From: Candidatus Uhrbacteria bacterium
Lineage (GTDB): Bacteria > Patescibacteriota > Patescibacteriia > UBA9934
Assembly (NCBI GenBank): GCA_018673485.1
Contig: JABHCP010000002.1
Span: 1,502-65,501 of the forward strand
Reading direction: 5' to 3'
DNA length: 64,000 bases
In this document: one piece after another, positions 3,644 through 62,974 of the stretch
How the letters are laid out: every line of letters begins with the position of its first letter
How positions within the stretch are numbered: position 1 is the first letter of the stretch
The notes under the pieces: generated by a model
The model's database searches: none
The model's input: only the letters and a program-made list of their open reading frames with translations
What the model was told of the DNA's origin: nothing
Program-made: the position numbers and the translations under genes

Positions 3644-4630
3644 TTATGCAATTTTATTAGGTAAACGTTTGTTATTTGTAAAAGCTAAAATGTTTTTTAG
3701 TGCAATCTGTCCCATGGCATCGCGCGCTTCGATCGTGGCTGACGCTGTATGCGGTGTTAAGATTACATTTGGCATTTTCCTGAGTTCAAATTTATCTCTT
3801 GGGTTGCAGTCGATCTTTGGTTCACATTCATAAACGTCTAGCCCAGCTCCGGCAATGTCGCCATTTTTTAGGGCCTTGATGAGTTCAGTTTCATCGACTA
3901 CTGGGCCCCGCGAGGTGTTTATTAGGAAAGCTGTTTTTTTCATGGCCTTCAGCTCCTTTGTGCTTATTAGGTGATGTGTTGCTTTTAGTAGTGGTACATG
4001 GAGCGTTACGATATCAGCTTCTTTTAGGAGTTGAGTTTTAGTTCTGAGTTTTGCTTTAAAATCCTTTTCGTATTTTGTATTTCGTTTGATGTCGTTGTAT
4101 ATAATCTTTACTCCAAATCCATCATAGAGCCGTTTTGAAATGCTGTATCCGATTCTCCCAGCTCCTATAACCCCAATCGTTTTACCAGATAGTCCGCTTC
4201 CAAGCATGAGTCCTGGATCCCATCCTTTATATTTTTTCGCTCGCGTGAAATTATCAGCCTCAATTAATCTATGTGCTAGTCCAAAGATCATTGCGATTGC
4301 GTGTTCAGCAACGGACTCTGTACTTTGATCACACGGCGTGTTGATAACTCGAATTTTTCGTCTCTTCGCCTCTTCGATATCTATATTATCAAAACCAACT
4401 GCATAGTTTGCGATCATTTTAAGCTGATCACCAGCCGCGTCCATAACTTGTGCGTCAATTCTGTCAGTGAGCAATGAAAGAATAATATCAGCGCCTTTAA
4501 CGCGCTTGAGAAGTTCTTTTCGTGGGATGATTTGATCTTTTTTGTATACAGAAACTTCAAACCCTTTTTGTTTTGAAAGTTTTTCAATTGCAGTTCCAGG
4601 GAACTGTCGCGTAACAAATATTTTGGTCAT
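3644..4630 (-). CDS. D-isomer-specific 2-hydroxyacid dehydrogenase (glycerate/hydroxypyruvate reductase family)
   Basis: NAD-binding GVIGAGRIGYSISKRL motif and the usual catalytic-region spacing for this family. Confidence 0.85.
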   Translation of the reverse strand: MTKIFVTRQFPGTAIEKLSKQKGFEVSVYKKDQIIPRKELLKRVKGADIILSLLTDRIDAQVMDAAGDQLKMIANYAVGFDNIDIEEAKRRKIRVINTPCDQSTESVAEHAIAMIFGLAHRLIEADNFTRAKKYKGWDPGLMLGSGLSGKTIGVIGAGRIGYSISKRLYDGFGVKIIYNDIKRNTKYEKDFKAKLRTKTQLLKEADIVTLHVPLLKATHHLISTKELKAMKKTAFLINTSRGPVVDETELIKALKNGDIAGAGLDVYECEPKIDCNPRDKFELRKMPNVILTPHTASATIEARDAMGQIALKNILAFTNNKRLPNKIA

Positions 4631-10410: not shown

Positions 10411-11382
10411 CTATCGTTTTTTCTTAATCACTCTCTGCGCTGCCTTTACTATCCATGGGGCGGTGAGTTTGTAGTGTTCTAGGAGTTCTTGTGGCGTTCC
10501 TGATTGTCCGAATTCGTCTTGGAGTCCGATGCGCTCAATTGGAACAGGGAATTCTTCGCTTAATAATTCGGCTACAGCTGAGCCCATACCTCCAGCGGCT
10601 TGAGCTTCTTCCGCCGTGACCACACACCCACATTCTTTTGCAGCTGCGAGGATTGTTTTCTCGTCCATTGGTTTTACGCTGGCATTATTAATGACCTGTG
10701 TTTTGATTCCGAGCTTTGATAATTGATCTGCCGCGAGCATGCATTCATATAATATTGGTCCGCAGCCAATGAGCGCCACGTCCGATCCCTTTAATAGTAC
10801 TTGAGCTTTTCCGATTTCAAACTTTGCCGATGGTGTAGTGAAGACTGGACTCTTTGCGCGAGCGAATCGGAGATATACGGGTCCTTTTTTCTTGGCAGCT
10901 GCGATCGTGGCCTTATGAGTTTCATTCGCGTCACATGGAACTAGCACTGTCATCTCGGGTAACACTCGCATCAAGGCGATGTCTTCAGTCATTTGATGCG
11001 TTGCGCCATCTGGTCCAACGGAAACTCCAGCATGTGCACCTGCAATTTTTAAATTCATCTTCTGCAAACATCCTGTGGTTCTAATTTGTTCCCAGTTTCG
11101 TCCAGGTGAGAACGCCGCGTAGCTTGAGATGAAGGCTGTCTTGCCAGCTAGTGCCATTCCAGCGCCAATTGCAGCCAGTGATTGTTCGCTAACTCCCATT
11201 TGCACAAATCGATCAGGATATGCGTCTTTAAAAGCCTGAACTCGCGTTGAGTCTGTTAGGTCAGCCGAAAGAACGTAGACGTTCTTGTTTGTTTTTCCAA
11301 GTTCAACCAAAGCGTCGCCGTATCCATTGCGGGTAGGGACGTGCTTGAGTGTATTTTTATTTTTCCAGCTGCGAATCAGCAT
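10411..11382 (-). CDS. transketolase, C-terminal subunit (pyrimidine-binding + C-terminal domains)
   Basis: Characteristic split-transketolase C-terminal-half sequence. Confidence 0.9.
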   Translation of the reverse strand: MLIRSWKNKNTLKHVPTRNGYGDALVELGKTNKNVYVLSADLTDSTRVQAFKDAYPDRFVQMGVSEQSLAAIGAGMALAGKTAFISSYAAFSPGRNWEQIRTTGCLQKMNLKIAGAHAGVSVGPDGATHQMTEDIALMRVLPEMTVLVPCDANETHKATIAAAKKKGPVYLRFARAKSPVFTTPSAKFEIGKAQVLLKGSDVALIGCGPILYECMLAADQLSKLGIKTQVINNASVKPMDEKTILAAAKECGCVVTAEEAQAAGGMGSAVAELLSEEFPVPIERIGLQDEFGQSGTPQELLEHYKLTAPWIVKAAQRVIKKKR

Positions 11383-11385
11383 AAT

Positions 11386-12294
11386 TTATTTTCGATATTT
11401 TCGGTAAATCCATCGTCCACCAAAGAACAGGATAAGAATTGGAATTATTGCAGCGCCACCGACTATCGCAAGTTCAATGACTCCTAGAACAAGACCTTGA
11501 AATAGGCGGATTACGGTTTGCGCTGAGTCCTTAATGGTTTGCAATGGGCGAAATTCGTCAGAACCCAATGTGATGGACGTTGCCTGTTCCAAGTAAATGC
11601 TGATCGTTGAGTAGCTGGTGGCACCTTGGTAGTGCTCAAGCTGTGCTTCGTAACGTTCGATCTCTTCACGAACATTTGAAAGATAGTATTGAACATTTAA
11701 AATATCCTCAACAGTTGTTGCTTGGTTTAATACTGACACGTACGCTACCTCTTCTGCTTGAGAATTAGAAAGACGTGCTTGAATATCAATAACTTGCTCA
11801 GTTACATCATCTGCGTTTACATTTTCTGATGTCACTGATTGAGCGATGTCCTTAATCGAATTCATAGCCGAATCGAATTGAGATTCCTCGACTTTCAGCT
11901 CAATGTCACCATAGGTGTAATCACCGCGTGAATAAATGTATCGATTTGTAACCGTTCCATTGTATTGAGTAGCGATTGCTGATAGTTGATCTGCGGCTGT
12001 ATTAATATCCTCTACTATCAACTCAACGTCACCGGTTTTGATTACGTATTGTTCCTCCTCAGCGATATCATATGCATCTTCGTCGTAATACATATCATCT
12101 GATTCAAAATCACCATATGATCCAAGGTCATCAAACGATCTAGAAACCTGTGATAGGGCGGAGCTTTCTACTGTGAATGTTCCAGTTGAGTCATTAGCGA
12201 TATCTACGGAGTTAAGTAGAAGGCTGAAGAAAAATAGAATCACTATAATGATCGCAAGAATCGAAAGGCGTTTTTTTGTCATCGATATATTCAT
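11386..12294 (-). CDS. membrane protein with N- and C-terminal TM helices (DUF4349-like)
   Basis: 302 aa; TM helices at both ends, acidic middle with a coiled-coil-like region; inserted between the two transketolase halves. Confidence 0.5.
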   Translation of the reverse strand: MNISMTKKRLSILAIIIVILFFFSLLLNSVDIANDSTGTFTVESSALSQVSRSFDDLGSYGDFESDDMYYDEDAYDIAEEEQYVIKTGDVELIVEDINTAADQLSAIATQYNGTVTNRYIYSRGDYTYGDIELKVEESQFDSAMNSIKDIAQSVTSENVNADDVTEQVIDIQARLSNSQAEEVAYVSVLNQATTVEDILNVQYYLSNVREEIERYEAQLEHYQGATSYSTISIYLEQATSITLGSDEFRPLQTIKDSAQTVIRLFQGLVLGVIELAIVGGAAIIPILILFFGGRWIYRKYRK

Positions 12295-54264: not shown

Positions 54265-54341
54265 TGGTGGGTCTGGCTGGACTCGAACCAGCGACCACGG
54301 AGGTATAAGCTCCGCGCTCTAACCAACTGAGCTACAGACCC
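54265..54341 (-). tRNA. tRNA-Ile (anticodon TAT)
   Basis: RC GGGTCTGTAGCTCAGTTGGTTAGAGCGCGGAGCTTATACCTCCGTGGTCGCTGGTTCGAGTCCAGCCAGACCCACCA; perfect cloverleaf; anticodon loop CTTATAC. Confidence 0.75.
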
Positions 54342-55177: not shown

Positions 55178-55768
55178 TTACCGGCGTCGTAGAGCAAGTA
55201 GGAGCACGATAAAGTCGAGTGCTGTGACGTTGATTGGGGCAACGATGTCGGTCCAGTGACCTTCCCACCGAATCCATACAACAATGATCTGCAACCCGAA
55301 TGCCATGCTCCAGATCAGCCAGGGGAGGCAGTGCTCTCTATCAGGTCTTTCCCACGTATATTTGAAGATCGGGAGGAACGACAGCAGGGTCGCGAACTGA
55401 AGGAGTATATTCGTGTAGGTTGCGTCATGCAACGCTAGCCCGGCTGTGATCGAGATCAGGCCAATCGCGATAATTCCTTGTTCAATCGGTGTGGGTTTGT
55501 TGAACTTTCCTCGCACTAGGAAAAATAGGAACGTGGCATTGCATCCGACTATTCCCACCAGTAGTGGCGCCGCTTTGAGGACATCGTCGTTCATCAGGAA
55601 GTAGGATATTCCTGATGCTGTTGCGATGCCGGCCCACATCGCCCACATGGTCGCATTTGGCTTTTTCTTCTTTTTGAGCACCAGATAATTGTATACGCCG
55701 ATACCAGTCAAGTTGAATGCCGCCGAGATGACAGCAAGGATGAAGTCAGGTGTAAGATATTCTTCCAA
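55178..55768 (-). CDS. hypothetical polytopic membrane protein
   Basis: 196 aa, about 6 TM helices; terminator hairpin gccctcc-gg-ggagggc at 55143-55162. Confidence 0.5.
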   Translation of the reverse strand: MEEYLTPDFILAVISAAFNLTGIGVYNYLVLKKKKKPNATMWAMWAGIATASGISYFLMNDDVLKAAPLLVGIVGCNATFLFFLVRGKFNKPTPIEQGIIAIGLISITAGLALHDATYTNILLQFATLLSFLPIFKYTWERPDREHCLPWLIWSMAFGLQIIVVWIRWEGHWTDIVAPINVTALDFIVLLLALRRR

Positions 55769-55850
55769 GGCGTCTCCCGTTGCATGGTATTAAAAGGGGC
55801 TCGTGGTGCTAGTTTTAACCATTTGTCATCATGCTGTCAATCAGATAATC

Positions 55851-57669: not shown

Positions 57670-57702
57670 AAAAAACCGCCTTTCATACGATTGGCGGTTT
57701 TT
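57670..57702. terminator. conserved terminator hairpin (copy 3 of 3)
   Basis: aaaaaaccgcctttcatacgattggcggttttt. Confidence 0.65.
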
Positions 57703-59143
57703 ATATTTGAGTTTTTATATATTCCTGTGCTTGGGGTCTAGTTTGAATTTTGTTTACTAGTTGCAGGTCGCGAACTTTGTCGAGTAAGTCGCGGAAGTGT
57801 ATTCCGGGTTCAAGTCCGAGTTCGATTAGATCTTTTCCAGAGACAAGTTTTGGATAGCACTGCGAGCAGTAGTGGTCGTATAGTCGCTTTGCGTTGTGGA
57901 TCCTCTCTGATGTCGCTGAGTGTGCACCTTTAACTAGTTCGATTGCGTGGATGAAGGCTAATAGCTGCTGACCCTTTTGTGTGCAGAACATTTTTTCAAA
58001 AGCACTTGGGCGCATTCCGGCTGGATCTTCAGTTTCAAGAATGTGTCTGTTGTCCAAAAGCCATGCGACAACATCACAATCAATCCGTGCCCAGTGGTTT
58101 GTAGGGAATTGATGTAAATACAATTGTCGACATAGGTGAAGCGCGTGCTCGTGCTCGTCTGAAAATACACTTAGTGCGGCAATTAGAGCATTGGGGTGAA
58201 TCTTGTCGAGTTTGTGACGGGCTAAAAAGCTTGGTCGGTGCAACATGTGCAGTAGGTCTTTTGTTTTTTCAAAAGCATTACTGTTGTCGTCGAGCGTGAT
58301 TGTTTTCTGCTCATGCAACCAAGGTATGAAAAGTTCGATTGCGCCTGCTTCGTCCCAAAGGTTGAGCGTGTGAACGGGGTGGGATATAAATCCAAGCAAG
58401 AATTCCTTACCAATTGCATCACGTGGAATTACATATTTAAAAGTACCATCGTCAGTCACTACTTTGTTATTCAAGACGTCCAGGTTATTACAAATCGCTG
58501 ACCAAGTTTCTTGTTCAATTCCAAACCTGAGTTGAGACGCAAACCTGAGCCCTCGTAATATTCGAGTAGCATCCTCGTAGAAGCGAGCCTCAGGGGAGAG
58601 CACGGTCCTGATTAATTGGTGTCCTAAATCCTGCATTCCATTGTGTGGATCGATGAGTTCACGAGATTGAATATCAAACGCAATTGCATTAATTGTATAG
58701 TCGCGACGTGAAAGATCTTCTTTGATTGATAATCTAAAGTCGGTTTCAACTACCTGATCTTTGCGACCGCTTCGGTGTTCATCTGCAATCTGTTCAGTTC
58801 GAGGCAGAGCGATGTCGATTGGCTGCATGTCGCGACATCCGTGTGGAGTGAACTTGAATGTTCCAAATCGTTCTCCTACAAAACGCACTGCACCTTGGCG
58901 TGAGAGCCACCGCTCAATTGTTTTTGCAGGAACACCTCGCACAACAAGATCAACGTCTTCAGGACTAGATCCTAAAAGAACATCACGAACAGTTCCACCG
59001 ACTAAATAGATTTGTGCCTCAGGGTGATCGCTTAAAAACAAAGATGTCCACGTCAGGCGCGGTTCAGACTCAACAAAATTAGCAACGCGAAATTCAGGCG
59101 CTGCGGATTTATGAGCATAGTGAATAAGTAATCCTCCGATCAT
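57701..59143 (-). CDS. cca: CCA-adding tRNA nucleotidyltransferase (pol beta NT domain + HD-like C-terminal region)
   Basis: YLVGGTVRDVLLG ... DVDLVV head-domain motifs. Confidence 0.85.
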   Translation of the reverse strand: MIGGLLIHYAHKSAAPEFRVANFVESEPRLTWTSLFLSDHPEAQIYLVGGTVRDVLLGSSPEDVDLVVRGVPAKTIERWLSRQGAVRFVGERFGTFKFTPHGCRDMQPIDIALPRTEQIADEHRSGRKDQVVETDFRLSIKEDLSRRDYTINAIAFDIQSRELIDPHNGMQDLGHQLIRTVLSPEARFYEDATRILRGLRFASQLRFGIEQETWSAICNNLDVLNNKVVTDDGTFKYVIPRDAIGKEFLLGFISHPVHTLNLWDEAGAIELFIPWLHEQKTITLDDNSNAFEKTKDLLHMLHRPSFLARHKLDKIHPNALIAALSVFSDEHEHALHLCRQLYLHQFPTNHWARIDCDVVAWLLDNRHILETEDPAGMRPSAFEKMFCTQKGQQLLAFIHAIELVKGAHSATSERIHNAKRLYDHYCSQCYPKLVSGKDLIELGLEPGIHFRDLLDKVRDLQLVNKIQTRPQAQEYIKTQI

Positions 59144-59408
59144 GGAAATATTATATCAAAAGTATTCAGTATGCAGTAGGCAGTATACAGTTTTTGTCCC
59201 CCTCCTTTTTACCCTTCAATATAACTCAGGGTACCCTGAGCGAAGTCGAATGGGTAAGGAGGGGCCAGGGGTGGTTATAATATAGCTTCAATCTTTCGAG
59301 TTAAAAAGCAAACGACCCTGAACCGTAGTGATTCAGGGCGCGGCCGCACCCGACGAATTCGGGGGCGGTTGGAGATGTAGTCAAATTGGGATTACGGATT
59401 TGGCATGA

Positions 59409-59666
59409 CTAGTTCTGGTCATGTCGCACCATGTCCAGAAATTCATCAATTGTCAAATTGGTATTGATTTTATCGCTTTCAAAATCTAAGTCGTGTACTC
59501 TCTCCAATTCGAAAGTGATCTCTACAAAATGAAGGCTATCTATGCTCAGTGAGGCGAGTGATAGCGAGGTGTTGATCTTGGACCACTCGTCAGGATCCAG
59601 AAAGCCCCTGATCTTGAGAGATTGACAAACTTCACAAAAGATACGAAAGAGCTGCTTGCGATCCAT
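59409..59666 (-). CDS. small acidic acyl-carrier-protein-like protein (Ser present in IDSL)
   Basis: LSIDSLHFVEITFELERVHDLDFESDKI ... TIDEFLDMV matches ACP/DltC-type carrier fold. Confidence 0.5.
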   Translation of the reverse strand: MDRKQLFRIFCEVCQSLKIRGFLDPDEWSKINTSLSLASLSIDSLHFVEITFELERVHDLDFESDKINTNLTIDEFLDMVRHDQN

Positions 59667-59808
59667 ACTTCCTCCAGGAGTAGTTCATGTAAGTCGGATA
59701 TCGACTAACAAGTACACCCATGTTTTATATCCTATGCGTGGGTTTGTCAAAAGCATAGCGACCGTACCCGAGTGGTGGGAGCGGTATGAGAGGTTTAAGG
59801 CGTAGCTA

Positions 59809-60090
59809 CTAGTCCTTGGTGTGTTCTGGTGTCGTGGCAAGCTCTGCTATCACCTTATCGGCAAGCTCATCGAGAGTGTTCGCAGGTGTGACCTCAAGTC
59901 GAACCTCATAGTCGTGGTCGATCTCATCGAGTACTTCTTCGAGGTCGAGACGCAGATCGTCAGGGTCTTCATTGTCCATGATGTTGTCGAGCCTTTCGTT
60001 GGCTCGCAAGACCAGGTTGCCAGAGGTAAACCCGAGACTGGTGATCATGCCAGCGATCGCCCTGAGAACTTCTTCACGCGTATGTTTCAT
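59809..60090 (-). CDS. small acidic ACP-like protein lacking the conserved Ser
   Basis: DDLRLDLEEVLDEIDHDYEVRLEV ... LDELADKVIAEL; same promoter and terminator modules as neighbours. Confidence 0.5.
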   Translation of the reverse strand: MKHTREEVLRAIAGMITSLGFTSGNLVLRANERLDNIMDNEDPDDLRLDLEEVLDEIDHDYEVRLEVTPANTLDELADKVIAELATTPEHTKD

Positions 60091-60248
60091 GATTCCTCCG
60101 AGGTTTGATGTATGTCGGTCAGATTTTGACCTGCAGTCACGTCAAGGTTTTATCGCGATAATTAAAGTTTGTCAAAAAGCACAAACCCTGAACCATTACG
60201 ATTCAGGGCGCGACCGCACTTGGAGTACCAGGTGCGGCGTGAGACGGG

Positions 60249-60860
60249 TTATTGGAAGATGAGTCTGAACACTTCGTCAACGAGTTCGTTGATTGTGTTG
60301 CTTGGCGTGATGCCTTCAAGCGAAATTCCGAACCCTTCAGCAGTTTTATCGATTATTCCCTGGAATTTATCATCGGGAATTCCAATCTGTTGGAGCGTGC
60401 AATGCCTATCTTCCATCGTAAGAGTTCTATCGAGTAGGGTTACAAAATTGCATACTGCCAAGATGCTATCAGACACATGTACGCGTGTGATGCCTTCTTC
60501 AAGGAGTTCGGGGTCACTCTTGGATTGAGCTATAGATATGTCAGTCCATTGCCCGATAGCTTGCTCAGAGCTCAATTCAGGATCGCTGTCACCTTCGTTT
60601 TCGATTTCATCTGAATCTTTTGGCCTAGGGCTATAATCCAAGACCAGACCGACAAGTTGATTGAGCGTGAAATCGAGCGTTAGGCCTCTGATGCGCAGCT
60701 CAAAGTCATTATGAATGTATCTGGTAATAGCTTTCAAGGCATCTGTATCGATGCCAAGTTCTTCCAAAGTTCTATCCCCATCATGCGCTTCAATTGATTT
60801 GGTGGAATGAGTGATTTCAATGTGAAGCGCGATCTCCTCGAATAGATCTCCATGCGTCAT
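60249..60860 (-). CDS. tandem two-domain ACP-like acidic protein
   Basis: Two carrier-like repeats (LEELGIDTDALKAI ... and AEGFGISLEGITPSNTINELVDEV). Confidence 0.5.
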   Translation of the reverse strand: MTHGDLFEEIALHIEITHSTKSIEAHDGDRTLEELGIDTDALKAITRYIHNDFELRIRGLTLDFTLNQLVGLVLDYSPRPKDSDEIENEGDSDPELSSEQAIGQWTDISIAQSKSDPELLEEGITRVHVSDSILAVCNFVTLLDRTLTMEDRHCTLQQIGIPDDKFQGIIDKTAEGFGISLEGITPSNTINELVDEVFRLIFQ

Positions 60861-61042
60861 GATTCCTCCACGATGCTGTTGAGTGATTTGGAAGTCGAAC
60901 TATAAACACCCCCATGTTTTATCGCTTACGTGCGAGTTTGTCAAAATATTGACTATTACTAGGTGATATCGTAAGTTAATTGTGCTAGTCGGAAAAGTAC
61001 TTTTGCATTTCCGCAGAGCACAGAACTAGCTTGGGAGAAGAG

Positions 61043-61669
61043 ATGGATAACGAGCAAGAAGAAAGGTTTATTGAATTTTTGGAAGCTCTTGCGCGCCGTG
61101 TTGATGTCAACTTGTTGGATCCAAGAGTGCTTGAGATCGTAATGCTCGACCCTGAGCGTGTAGCTGTTCAGCTCATTGATTTCATCAATCGCGGTTGTTG
61201 GCGGGGCATCATCCGCAGACATACGGTCACAATCGGCCGGTATGGGGGTGCGCAGCGAGCGGAGTTGGAGTTGTCCCGAACGTGCGAAGTCACGTCATAC
61301 GCTCGTAGCATGATGGAGCTAATGGAGTTCGCGCAGGAAGAGCGCACTTTGCATATTCTCGAGGTATCGGTTGAGGCTCTTGGTTTTCCGTTGGGTATCA
61401 CACATCGTGAGTCTTGCAGGATGGCTCATAATCATGGGTGGCTTATGTGCCCGGCTGAGGCTGCTCTTGTCGTGCGAGCTCAGTGCCTAAATCAGTGCAC
61501 AGGCGTCAACATCTTTCCGGTTATGAACAAAATCCACTACCGCCAACAAGGTCACAGTGTGTTCCAGTTGCTGCATAAACGTGGTCATCGCCCCATGTTG
61601 CATGCCAATACTGCAAGGAGTCATGATCGAACTTTAGGCTCTGCTCGACTACTGTTCCTCGAGCCATAA
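61043..61669 (+). CDS. GC-enriched hypothetical protein
   Basis: RBS gggagaagag before ATG at 61043; about 54% GC; 11 bp perfect hairpin terminator at 61728-61752. Confidence 0.45.
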   Translation: MDNEQEERFIEFLEALARRVDVNLLDPRVLEIVMLDPERVAVQLIDFINRGCWRGIIRRHTVTIGRYGGAQRAELELSRTCEVTSYARSMMELMEFAQEERTLHILEVSVEALGFPLGITHRESCRMAHNHGWLMCPAEAALVVRAQCLNQCTGVNIFPVMNKIHYRQQGHSVFQLLHKRGHRPMLHANTARSHDRTLGSARLLFLEP

Positions 61670-61756: not shown

Positions 61757-62974
61757 TTATGCTGTGAGGCCTTTAATGGTTGTTCGTAAGTGTGTGATGA
61801 GTTGCTTTTCTGCTTTTACGATGTCTTTCTGGCGGATTTGAAGTTTGGATTCTTCGCGTGTTCCAGCAGCACGGAACGGAGCTCCGAGCATGAGGGCATC
61901 ATACGGGCGGCGGGCGTGCATTATGGACGCTGTGTATCCTTCGGGGTGCTCGTATAGTACGCAGGCGACTTGCGCCTCAGGTGCGCTCATCATTAGTTCT
62001 TCGATAATATTTTCGAGCGCTGATTCGTCCGATCCTGAGTTTGTGAAATCTTGTTTTGTAAGCAGCGTCCAAACAATGTTGTGTTGATTGTCTGATTTTA
62101 GTCGAGCCAGCGCTCGTCCCCAGAGGCGTAGAGTTTCAACTGATCGAGTCTTATAAAGTTTTTCAACAATCTCATCGCGTCGCGCTCCTTTGGTAATTAG
62201 GTCGCCGGCGATCTTTAGAGTTCTAGGTGAAACATTCTCTGTTCTAAAGCTTCGAGTCTTGTAGATCATTCCGGTTAAGAACAAGGTCGCGATTTCCTCA
62301 TCCACCAATCCTTCATCAATGCGCATGAAAGTGTCATAGCAAATCTCGGAACACGAGACAGCGCTCATGTCTACAAGATTCACCTGACCAAAATGTTCAT
62401 TAGCACTATTGTGATCAATGTTGATGATTGGAGTTTGGTGAAAGAAGTCACCGTAGTTTTCAAAAAGTGGACCAAAGGTCTCAAGCTCAGCCGCACCGAT
62501 TGAAATGATCAAATCATGCTTGTAACTGTGTGCATCGACTTTAACATCTTCCAAGTTCCAGTTTCCAGACTTTGGTAATAGATGAATATGAAGCTCTTCA
62601 CCCTCCATATTATATGAAAGCTCATCAACCTTGGCTTGCTTGGCATTAACTCGAAGAGTGAGCTTCCGAATATTTTGAATGTCACCCCGCACAGCTGAAG
62701 GGGCTTTAATAAAAGAAAGAGATTTCGGAATGTTGGCACCCGGGCTAACGATCTCCACGGGTTTGTCGAGTTTTTGCAGTAGTGCGCATACGCCAAAAGC
62801 GGATGCAAAATCATCCGCGTTTGCTCCATGGCTTAACAAAATTACCGGTCGTTTAGACCGCTCAAGCATGGTGAAAAATTGTTCGTGGCTGGTATAAGCC
62901 ATGCTATTTTTCAAATTTATTAATCTCTCCTCCGTCTGATTGCTATGACAAGCCGCTTTCCCAAATTGGGACAA
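61757..62974 (-). CDS. DHH-family phosphoesterase (NrnA/RecJ-like)
   Basis: DHH-type motif region IINIDHNSANEHFG and DHHA1-like C-terminus. Confidence 0.65.
   Translation of the reverse strand: MSQFGKAACHSNQTEERLINLKNSMAYTSHEQFFTMLERSKRPVILLSHGANADDFASAFGVCALLQKLDKPVEIVSPGANIPKSLSFIKAPSAVRGDIQNIRKLTLRVNAKQAKVDELSYNMEGEELHIHLLPKSGNWNLEDVKVDAHSYKHDLIISIGAAELETFGPLFENYGDFFHQTPIINIDHNSANEHFGQVNLVDMSAVSCSEICYDTFMRIDEGLVDEEIATLFLTGMIYKTRSFRTENVSPRTLKIAGDLITKGARRDEIVEKLYKTRSVETLRLWGRALARLKSDNQHNIVWTLLTKQDFTNSGSDESALENIIEELMMSAPEAQVACVLYEHPEGYTASIMHARRPYDALMLGAPFRAAGTREESKLQIRQKDIVKAEKQLITHLRTTIKGLTA

What the first reader, a model, noticed from the sequence alone, without database searches (positions are those of the whole stretch)
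59160..61030. Cassette array of small acidic ACP-like genes, each with a near-identical promoter and twin-hairpin terminator
Three consecutive minus-strand genes (85 aa, 93 aa, and a 203 aa two-domain protein) all have an acyl/peptidyl-carrier-protein-like signature (LD/SL ... EL ... F ... I ... T.DEL.D.V). Only one retains the phosphopantetheinyl Ser (IDSL). Each gene is preceded by a conserved promoter, TTGACAAAC-N14/15-GATAAAAC (TATAAAAC in one copy), followed by a GGAGGAA RBS. Two of the three have a conserved tandem-hairpin module downstream: ccctgaacc..gattcaggg plus ccgcac...gtgcgg at 59310-59380 and 60178-60245. No ligase, synthase or PPTase partner is present. Small, very acidic Ser-less carrier-fold proteins under duplicated strong promoters could be DNA or protein mimics, or a lineage-specific carrier system.
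Basis: partly seen in the sequence, partly recalled or inferred. Interest (0 to 1): 0.7.

Follow-up and report, generated by a model that had tools for sequence, protein, structure and literature searches.

The report
Tandem acidic carrier-like genes, self-contained units
A marine ultra-small (CPR) bacterium carries three neighbouring genes for small, very acidic proteins that descend from the acyl-carrier-protein fold but have mostly lost the attachment serine; each has its own conserved promoter, leader hairpin and terminator, and the proteins evolve far faster than their neighbours, so they are probably protein-binding decoys, not carriers.

Summary
Three minus-strand genes (203, 93 and 85 aa) each carry the same promoter-like motif, TTGACA-N17-TAAAAC. 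This motif occurs only there in the 64-kb window. Each gene also has a GGAGGAA ribosome-binding site, a small covarying 5'-UTR hairpin and a downstream hairpin module.

The window comes from a marine Candidatus Uhrbacteria (CPR) genome. The 85-aa protein is a borderline ACP match and has the DSL serine. The 93-aa protein and both halves of the 203-aa protein are paralogs of each other. They link to the 85-aa protein and to ACPs only at profile level, and none has the serine. Structure predictions were too poor to test the fold.

An exhaustive search of 1.84 billion proteins found only four relatives. All lie at the same chromosomal slot, just upstream of the CCA-enzyme gene, in sister genomes. 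There the flanking genes are 75-92% identical, but the small proteins are only 26-69% identical, and gene number varies between genomes.

The window holds no PPTase, ligase or synthase. I read this as a lineage-restricted, fast-evolving family of unmodified acidic binder or decoy proteins derived from ACP. It is not a carrier system. The function is inferred, and the interest is moderate.

The parts
60249..60860 (-). Gene for a 203-aa acidic protein (pI 4.3, net charge -26) made of two carrier-like domains joined by an acidic linker. The serine position holds Thr in the N domain (GIDTD) and Asp in the C domain (GIPDD).
   Evidence: ORF. N domain versus C domain: BLASTP 6e-6. Orthologs are L009 206 aa (26% identical) and L008 87+108 aa (40% and 69%). 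Charge.
59809..60090 (-). Gene for a 93-aa acidic protein (pI 4.3, 26% Asp+Glu). It is a single domain with an acidic residue at the serine position.
   Evidence: ORF. BLASTP 1e-5 to the C domain of the 203-aa protein. The ortholog is L010 89 aa (43% identical).
59409..59666 (-). Gene for an 85-aa acidic protein. It is the most ACP-like copy and the only one with the DSL serine (S44).
   Evidence: Pfam PP-binding 20.6 bits (cut-off 20.8); NCBIfam ACP 2.2e-4; PHROG ACP 3.2e-4. PDB hits are all ACPs, with the serine aligned. hhalign to the family profile: E 7.6e-6.
60916..60944 (-). Promoter-like motif of the 203-aa gene: TTGACAAACTCGCACGTAAGCGATAAAAC.
   Evidence: It is conserved in L010 and L009 in front of family genes only.
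60147..60175 (-). Promoter-like motif of the 93-aa gene. Its -35 overlaps the T-run of the upstream terminator.
59722..59750 (-). Promoter-like motif of the 85-aa gene (TATAAAAC variant).
   Evidence: The 64 nt from the promoter into the leader are 70% identical to the 203-aa unit (D1).
60886..60900 (-). 5'-UTR mini-hairpin of the 203-aa unit (GTTCG/CAAAT, 4 of 5 pairs).
   Evidence: Alignment A7 and pair counts.
60117..60131 (-). 5'-UTR mini-hairpin of the 93-aa unit (GGTCA/TGACC).
   Evidence: It is compensatory relative to AGTCG/CGACT.
59692..59706 (-). 5'-UTR mini-hairpin of the 85-aa unit (AGTCG/CGACT).
   Evidence: The covariation score is 0.367 against 0.222 in shuffles (2 of 500 reach it), and all slid controls are lower.
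60174..60238 (-). Twin-hairpin terminator module after the 203-aa gene: hairpin 1 at 60213-60238, hairpin 2 at 60186-60208, then a T-run.
   Evidence: RNA fold -33.3 kcal/mol, z -4.2.
59761..59785 (-). Single, decayed hairpin after the 93-aa gene (hairpin 1 only).
   Evidence: Alignment. Fold -9.8 kcal/mol, z -0.27.
59303..59368 (-). Twin-hairpin terminator module after the 85-aa gene: hairpin 1 at 59344-59368, hairpin 2 at 59316-59338, then a T-run.
   Evidence: Fold -33.3 kcal/mol, z -2.4. About 90% identical to the module after the last family gene in L008.

Best explanation
This is a tandem family of paralogous genes restricted to one lineage. The host is a marine Candidatus Uhrbacteria (Patescibacteria/CPR) bacterium.

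Shown:
- Each gene is a self-contained transcription unit. It has a sigma-70-like promoter (TTGACA-N17-TAAAAC), a short leader with a conserved 5-bp hairpin, a strong GGAGGAA ribosome-binding site, and one or two GC-rich terminator hairpins.
- The repeated regulatory modules are kept by selection, while the coding parts diverge quickly.

Inferred:
- The repeated modules also serve as substrates for unequal recombination. This would explain why gene number differs between sister genomes.
- The proteins are small, cytoplasmic and very acidic helical domains that most likely descend from an acyl-carrier-protein ancestor.
- All except possibly the 85-aa copy have lost the phosphopantetheine-attachment serine, so they cannot carry acyl groups.
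- They most likely act unmodified, as abundant polyanionic binding modules. They would keep the carrier core and the acidic helix-II face, and would bind and neutralise a basic surface on partner proteins. This makes them inhibitors, antitoxin-like or immunity-like factors, or mimics.
- The partner is unknown. Candidates are the variable accessory proteins encoded head-to-head in the same chromosomal slot.
For: Architecture. The promoter motif is found only in front of family genes, both in the window and in sister loci.

Paralogy:
- 93 aa versus the C domain of the 203-aa protein: 1e-5. N domain versus C domain: 6e-6.
- The profile of 10 serine-less domains matches the 85-aa protein at E 7.6e-6, probability 84%, over its full length and in register.

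ACP ancestry:
- The 85-aa protein hits only ACP models.
- The serine-less profile against PDB puts ACPs at 6 of the top 19 hits; the best is 2kw2 at E 0.006, in register with DSL.
- The serine-less profile against an ACP profile scores 21.6 (P 0.0018). The maximum over 60 column shuffles is 13.2.

Not carriers:
- The serine position holds D, E, T, G or N in all but the 85-aa copy and one VS copy.
- The window holds no PPTase, ligase or ketosynthase.

Fast evolution and turnover:
- Only four relatives turned up among 1.84 billion representatives. All are at the same slot, between the DHH-like gene and the CCA-enzyme gene.
- Flanking genes are 75-92% identical, with dN 0.05-0.16. Family proteins are 26-69% identical, with dN 0.18-0.89. 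dS is saturated.
- Gene content differs between genomes: 203+93+85 in the window, 87+108 in L008, 206+83+111 in L009, 89+86 in L010, and none in L012.

Other support:
- All clear members have pI 4.0-4.6 and 18-28% Asp+Glu.
- The conserved columns are hydrophobic core positions, while surface positions vary but stay acidic.
- ORFs stay intact and dN/dS is 0.28-0.57 where it can be measured, so the genes are functional.
Against: - No partner was identified, and no experiment or expression data were available.
- The carrier fold was not confirmed by structure: AF2 gave pLDDT 60 and 40, and fold searches returned generic helical bundles with no ACPs among the best matches.
- Neither the individual serine-less members nor their consensus hit PP-binding or ACP models in Pfam or NCBIfam.
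- High acidity is normal for true ACPs, so it does not discriminate.
- The array persists in two genomes (the window and L008) that lack the candidate partner genes seen in L009, L010 and L012.
- Adjacency to the CCA-enzyme gene may simply reflect conserved synteny among close relatives.
Confidence: 0.45

Rival explanations
1. This is a genuine carrier system specific to the lineage. The 85-aa protein is a phosphopantetheinylated ACP serving lipid salvage or a small biosynthetic pathway. The serine-less paralogs are regulatory or degenerate copies.
For: - The 85-aa protein has the canonical DSL motif, aligned to the modified serine of rat FAS ACP and other ACPs.
- It scores essentially at the Pfam threshold.
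- JGI names it an acyl carrier protein.
Against: - Its positional ortholog in L010 is 28% identical and has Glu at the serine position.
- L008 and L012 lack the gene altogether.
- A housekeeping ACP would not diverge like this while its neighbours stay 85-90% identical.
- The 64-kb window holds no PPTase, ligase, ketosynthase or Pls enzyme.
Confidence: 0.12
2. These are antitoxin-like or immunity-like inhibitors of the accessory proteins encoded head-to-head in the same slot. In sister genomes those include a 356-384-aa protein with a GGAAR...RD(I/L)D motif that resembles a nucleotidyltransferase. The acidic proteins could also be DNA or RNA mimics that block nucleic-acid-binding enzymes.
For: - L009, L010 and L012 each have the 356-384-aa gene divergently adjacent to small acidic genes.
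- In L012 the family is replaced by an unrelated 96-aa protein that is also acidic (pI 4.4).
- L009 additionally carries an ATPase like AriA, PtuA or AAA_21. This marks the slot as a variable, defence-like hotspot.
- The charge and size fit known mimic proteins.
Against: - The window and L008 have the array without the 356-384-aa gene.
- The nucleotidyltransferase assignment rests on motif resemblance only. There were no Pfam or PDB hits, and hhalign against the CCA enzyme gave P 0.095.
- There are no homologs in 50,697 phage records.
- The locus is chromosomal and syntenic, not on a mobile element.
Confidence: 0.2
3. These are decaying duplicates or fragments with no present function: neutral junk, or pieces of one disrupted gene.
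For: - Non-synonymous divergence is very high.
- The terminator after the 93-aa gene is weak.
- L008 has an in-frame stop in the linker.
Against: - Every unit has its own promoter, ribosome-binding site, ATG, stop codon and hairpin.
- ORFs stay intact across genomes whose synonymous sites are saturated, and dN/dS is 0.28-0.57.
- Promoter, leader hairpin and terminator are conserved across those same genomes.
- The hydrophobic core pattern is conserved.
- Identical proteins occur on 11-23 independent contigs.
Confidence: 0.05
4. These are mobile cassettes like those of integrons or rAID arrays. The conserved hairpins would be recombination sites moved by a site-specific recombinase.
For: The array consists of repeated units bounded by conserved inverted repeats, and gene content varies between genomes.
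Against: - The window holds no integrase or recombinase.
- The cassettes all belong to one family and carry internal promoters.
- The hairpins are followed by T-runs and lack the attC core GTTRRRY.
- The slot is fixed in position between the same two housekeeping genes.
Confidence: 0.03

Closest known systems
Acyl/peptidyl carrier proteins (Pfam PP-binding PF00550; for example E. coli AcpP and the specialised ACP RPA2022, PDB 2kw2)
   Same: They share size (about 80-90 aa per domain) and strong acidity. The motif layout also matches: xTLxELG(I/V)xxD at the start of the second long helix, then an acidic helix, F-x-V/I, and T-L-x-E-L-V at the last helix. The 85-aa copy keeps DSL. Weak matches are consistently in register.
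   Different: Ten of 11 domains lack the modified serine. No member reaches a curated cut-off. There are no partner enzymes nearby. Divergence between sister genomes is extreme, and the genes form a tandem array with private promoters. A two-domain fusion is present.
Carrier proteins used as structural or regulatory subunits (mitochondrial ACP with LYR proteins; from general knowledge)
   Same: In both cases a carrier-fold protein would act mainly by binding partner proteins through its acidic face.
   Different: Those proteins still require the acyl-phosphopantetheine arm. Here the attachment site is gone. No LYR-like partner was looked for or found.
Acidic DNA-mimic or anti-restriction proteins (Ocr, ArdA; from general knowledge)
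   Same: They are small, highly acidic and abundantly expressed, and they evolve fast.
   Different: They have different folds and are carried by phages or plasmids. This locus is chromosomal and syntenic, and it has no phage homolog. Mimicry was not tested.
Orphan immunity-gene arrays with repeated intergenic promoters (the rAID-1 type in Bacteroidales; recalled from the literature, not checked here)
   Same: These are arrays of small genes, each preceded by a conserved intergenic module, and their content varies between strains.
   Different: Those arrays mix many immunity families and sit next to a recombinase and toxin fragments. Here there is a single family, with no recombinase and no toxin gene.

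Membership tests
ACP / PP-binding superfamily | A sequence match to a curated PP-binding or ACP model above its cut-off. | tested here: not met
   The 85-aa protein scores 20.6 bits against a gathering score of 20.8, and its NCBIfam hits are far below their cut-offs. The 93-aa and 203-aa proteins, their relatives and the family consensus get no hit. Profile-level similarity does exist.
ACP / PP-binding superfamily | A conserved serine in the (D)S(L) motif at the N-terminus of helix II, where phosphopantetheine attaches. | tested here: not met
   Only the 85-aa protein has DSL. The other ten domains have D, E, T, G, N or an isolated VS.
ACP / PP-binding superfamily | The four-helix carrier fold. 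| tested here: inconclusive
ACP / PP-binding superfamily | A cognate PPTase and ACP-dependent enzymes in the genome. | tested here: not met
   None are in the 64-kb window. The rest of the genome could not be searched with these tools.
Housekeeping ACP (AcpP equivalog) | High conservation and universal presence among close relatives. | tested here: not met
   The positional ortholog is 28% identical, and the gene is absent in L008 and L012, while the flanking genes are 75-92% identical.
DNA-mimic / anti-restriction proteins | A surface charge array that mimics B-DNA and inhibits DNA-binding enzymes. | not testable with these tools
   Only the bulk acidity is known (pI 4.0-4.6). No reliable structure is available.
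DNA-mimic / anti-restriction proteins | Carriage on phages, plasmids or other mobile elements. | tested here: not met
   The locus sits in a syntenic chromosomal slot between housekeeping genes. tblastn found no match in phage records.
Integron-type cassette array | An integrase together with attC recombination sites that bound promoterless cassettes. | tested here: not met
   The window holds no integrase. Each cassette has its own promoter. The hairpins behave as terminators.
Toxin-antitoxin / polymorphic-toxin immunity | An adjacent cognate toxin gene. | tested here: inconclusive
   The window holds no recognisable toxin. Sister loci have an uncharacterised 356-384-aa protein and an ATPase like AriA or PtuA next to the array. 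PADLOC gives nothing for the small proteins.

The most novel reading that the evidence does not exclude
Serine-less proteins with the carrier fold have been repurposed in an ultra-small episymbiotic bacterium as polyanionic mimics. One version is antitoxin-like inhibitors of nucleic-acid- or tRNA-binding enzymes encoded in the same variable slot beside the CCA-adding enzyme. Another is apo-ACP decoys that engage ACP-binding enzymes, for example in lipid scavenging. Either way they would form a new functional class derived from ACP, diversified by an arms race and expanded by recombination between their own promoter and terminator modules.
Probability: 0.12. Interest if true: 0.7.

Novelty: new variant of a known kind. 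Interest (0 to 1): 0.4.

Why it matters
CPR bacteria are full of small orphan proteins, and few can be tied to any fold. Here an orphan family can be traced to the carrier-protein fold. It has demonstrably lost the carrier chemistry, and it shows the signature of conflict or adaptation genes: 5- to 10-fold faster protein change than its neighbours, gene gain and loss, and domain fusion and fission.

The locus also gives a rare, clean view of a complete native expression unit in an uncultured CPR organism: promoter, leader hairpin, Shine-Dalgarno sequence and terminator. These elements are conserved across genomes whose neutral sites are saturated. That could help in annotating or engineering such organisms.

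If the proteins prove to be mimics or inhibitors, they would add a new use for the ACP fold.

Tried and rejected
- Word-indexed homolog searches with the 85-aa and 203-aa proteins returned only the queries themselves. The family-profile search returned only P0008 (the L008 87-aa relative) and the window's own 93-aa protein.
- AF2 gave low confidence for the 203-aa protein as a single sequence and for the 93-aa protein with a 3-row alignment. The fold searches on the 93-aa model were therefore uninformative.
- Rfam found no family in 58900-61400.
- PADLOC and PHROGs gave nothing for the serine-less proteins.
- The family consensus got no ACP hit in Pfam or NCBIfam.
- The family profile against single E. 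coli AcpP gave nothing. Only the profile-profile comparison gave a signal.
- Genome and metagenome scans with the CCA enzyme added only one new close locus, L012, which lacks the family.
- Five literature searches found nothing on serine-less ACP-like arrays or ACPs in Uhrbacteria.
- The 356-384-aa neighbour in sister loci looked like a class-II nucleotidyltransferase by motif. Pfam, PDB and hhalign did not support this.
- The ideas of integron cassettes and of fragments of one gene were considered and rejected (see the rival explanations).
Full report
**Origin and setting**

The three proteins are found, identical, on contig JABGPN010000009 of GCA_018644925.1. NCBI names this genome Candidatus Uhrbacteria bacterium, which belongs to the Patescibacteria/Parcubacteria group. 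The same proteins occur on 11-23 other marine metagenome contigs.

The window otherwise encodes housekeeping functions typical of CPR genomes. These include tRNA synthetases, pentose-phosphate enzymes, RNase J, UvrA, glycosyltransferases and FemAB. The array lies between a DHH-family gene (61757-62974) and a 480-aa PolyA_pol-family gene, presumably the CCA-adding enzyme (57701-59143).

**Checking the observation**

The ORFs of 203, 93 and 85 aa are as described.

The promoter-like motif occurs three times, each 70-85 nt upstream of one of the ATGs, and nowhere else in 64 kb. Chance predicts 0.01-0.03 matches. Read as a sigma-70 promoter it is TTGACA, a 17-nt spacer, then TAAAAC. GGAGGAA precedes each ATG by 4-5 nt.

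Hairpin 2 (CCCTGAAYC...GRTTCAGGG followed by a T-run) occurs exactly twice. Hairpin 1 (CCGCnCC...GGGTGCGG) follows all three genes, but the copy after the 93-aa gene has decayed. The two twin modules fold at -33 kcal/mol, with z -4.2 and -2.4. The T-run of each terminator runs straight into the -35 of the next promoter. The repeat unit is therefore terminator, promoter, leader, ribosome-binding site, gene.

About 20 nt into each leader there is a 5-bp hairpin whose sequence differs between units while the pairing is kept:
- AGTCG/CGACT
- GGTCA/TGACC
- GATCG/CGATC
- GAGTCG/CGACTC

Across eight units from four genomes, 69.6% of cells pair. The covariation score is 0.367 against 0.222 in shuffles (2 of 500 reach it), and all slid controls are far lower. 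This is modest but real support for a conserved leader structure.

**What the proteins are**

The 85-aa protein matches only acyl-carrier models:
- Pfam PP-binding: 20.6 bits, 0.2 below the gathering score.
- NCBIfam: eight ACP families listed, best E-value 2e-4.
- PHROG ACP: 3e-4.
- PDB: the five best hits are all ACPs.

Its S44 aligns to the modified serine.

The 93-aa protein and both halves of the 203-aa protein are significantly similar to one another (1e-5 and 6e-6). They hit no library model.

After adding the relatives found elsewhere, I built a profile of ten serine-less domains. It gave these results:
- It aligns to the 85-aa protein over its full length, in the expected register (hhalign E 7.6e-6, probability 84%).
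- Against PDB, ACPs make up 6 of the 19 best hits. The best is 2kw2 at E 0.006, with its DSL aligned. Each hit is individually sub-significant.
Sixty column-shuffled controls reach at most 13.2, and the reversed profile scores 12.2.

The regulatory modules around the 85-aa gene are homologous to those of the other two units, which argues for whole-unit duplication. Together this makes descent from a carrier-protein ancestor likely; my estimate is about 75%.

The structural test was inconclusive. The AF2 models had pLDDT 60 (four helices) and 40, and fold searches returned generic helical bundles. The family consensus does not hit PP-binding.

**Loss of the carrier chemistry**

At the serine position the domains carry T, D, E, G, N, or in one case a serine in a VS context. 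Only the 85-aa copy has DSL.

Its positional ortholog in L010 starts MDRGTVW, compared with MDRKQLF in the window. It is 28% identical and has Glu at that position. L008 and L012 have no such gene. That is not how a working housekeeping ACP behaves.

The window holds no PPTase, adenylating ligase, ketosynthase or Pls enzyme. The rest of the genome could not be searched.

**Distribution and evolution**

An exhaustive HMMER search of 1.84 billion representatives, using the first family profile, found only four true relatives. A fifth hit, P0006, is a repetitive 522-aa sequence that I judged spurious.

All four relatives lie at the same slot in sister genomes, directly upstream of the CCA-enzyme gene and in the same direction. 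Gene content differs:

| Genome | Family genes at the slot |
|---|---|
| Window | 203 + 93 + 85 aa |
| L008 | The 203-aa homolog only, split by an in-frame TAG in the linker into 87 + 108 aa |
| L009 | 206 + 83 + 111 aa. The 206-aa gene probably starts 12 codons later, because the annotated start lies inside the leader hairpin. The 111-aa ORF, read as 92 aa from its first internal ATG, is neutral (pI 8) and only a doubtful member (hhalign E 0.0026) |
| L010 | 89 + 86 aa |
| L012 | None; an unrelated acidic 96-aa gene sits there instead |

In L008 the twin-hairpin module follows directly after the 203-aa homolog. That module follows both the 203-aa gene and the 85-aa gene in the window. This is what unequal recombination between the repeated modules would produce; it is an inference.

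The flanking proteins are 75-92% identical, with dN 0.05-0.16 and dN/dS 0.03-0.05. Synonymous sites are saturated, with dS above 1.7. The family proteins are 26-69% identical, with dN 0.18-0.89 and dN/dS 0.28-0.57 where it can be measured. So the proteins change roughly 5-10 times faster than their neighbours, yet they remain intact ORFs. Meanwhile their promoters, leader hairpins, ribosome-binding sites and terminators are conserved in sequence or structure against a neutral background that has been randomised.

All clear members are strongly acidic (pI 4.0-4.6, 18-28% Asp+Glu). The conserved columns are core hydrophobic positions plus TLxELG and TLxELV. The surface varies but stays acidic.

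**Interpretation**

The shown facts are:
- The genes form autonomous, apparently strong expression units.
- The carrier-like core is kept.
- The attachment site is lost.
- Negative charge is retained while surface identity changes rapidly.
- Gene number varies and domains fuse and split.
- The locus is a variable slot. In sister genomes that slot also holds an ATPase like AriA, PtuA or AAA_21 and an uncharacterised 356-384-aa protein.

From these facts I infer that the proteins act unmodified, as abundant acidic binding or decoy modules: inhibitors, antitoxin-like or immunity-like factors, or mimics. I do not think they are acyl carriers. I give this 0.45. The partner is unknown.

The more specific version is that they neutralise the head-to-head accessory proteins or mimic nucleic acid. 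It fits three of five loci, but the array also exists without those genes. The nucleotidyltransferase look of the 356-384-aa protein is only a motif resemblance.

A true carrier role for the 85-aa copy remains possible at about 0.12. Junk or fragments, and integron-like cassettes, are unlikely for the reasons given under the rival explanations.

**Verdict**

The finding is real and well described. The family is new, lineage-restricted, and best filed as a serine-less variant of the carrier-protein fold. Membership in the ACP superfamily is supported by weak but concordant sequence evidence only; several defining features were tested and not met. Interest is moderate. It is a tidy example of an orphan CPR family with a traceable origin and unusually clear regulatory anatomy, but its function is inferred, not shown.

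Noticed in passing
window 59160-59300 (-), and L008 10640-10740: A conserved non-coding stretch lies between the last family terminator and the CCA-enzyme gene. It has a promoter-like TTAACT-16-TATTAT, then CACCCCTGGCCCCTCCTT, which opens a long hairpin: an anti-SD-like CCUCCUU pairs with GGAGG (-40.8 kcal/mol, z -4.3). It is about 90% identical to L008 over about 90 nt, although synonymous sites are saturated. There is no Rfam hit. It may be a small RNA or a leader.
   Followed up: partly
window 59143-59175 (-); L008 about 10948-10970; L009 about 11603-11625; L010 about 4190-4212: In all four genomes the CCA-enzyme gene has TTTGATATAAT or GATATAAT (an extended -10) ending 6 nt before its ATG. 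This suggests a leaderless mRNA. A second in-frame ATG 8 codons downstream has GGAGGA 14 nt upstream of it.
   Followed up: no
L008 10262-10282: An in-frame TAG in the acidic interdomain linker splits the homolog of the 203-aa protein into separate 87-aa and 108-aa ORFs, with an ATG four codons after the stop. This could be natural domain fission, a pseudogene or a sequencing error.
   Followed up: partly
L009 8696-9850 (-), L010 2047-3117 (-), L012 3939-5081 (-): A conserved protein of 356-384 aa (57-62% identical between genomes) is encoded head-to-head with the array in three sister genomes but is absent from the window. It contains YKGGAARxLLL...RD(I/L)D and TRDFRLNEILA, which recall class-II nucleotidyltransferase motifs. 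It has no Pfam or PDB hit, and hhalign against the CCA enzyme gave P 0.095.
   Followed up: partly
L009 7082-8665 (-): A 527-aa ABC-type ATPase (AAA_21; PADLOC hits to mad3, AriA, HEC-01A and PtuA, 1e-12 to 1e-7) is inserted in the same slot. This suggests the region between the DHH gene and the array is a hotspot for defence-type accessory genes.
   Followed up: partly
window 61031-61669 (+): A 212-aa ORF with no detectable family is divergent from the array. JGI and ENA call it as 208 aa, whereas NCBI calls two short ORFs on the other strand. It occupies the position held by the 356-384-aa gene in sister genomes but is unrelated to it.
   Followed up: partly
L012 5444-5734 (+): In the one close relative that lacks the family, the slot holds an unrelated acidic 96-aa gene (pI 4.4). 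Its GC content is 62%, against 41-48% for the flanking CCA and DHH genes measured in the window, L008, L009 and L010, so it looks recently acquired.
   Followed up: no
window 54265-54341 (-): A tRNA-Ile gene with anticodon UAU is present. This is an uncommon way for bacteria to read AUA.
   Followed up: no
window 55812-55840 (-): This is the only other TTGACA-N17-TAAAAC match in the window. It lies upstream of an uncharacterised 196-aa gene (55178-55768). TAAAAC may therefore be an accepted -10 variant in this organism.
   Followed up: no
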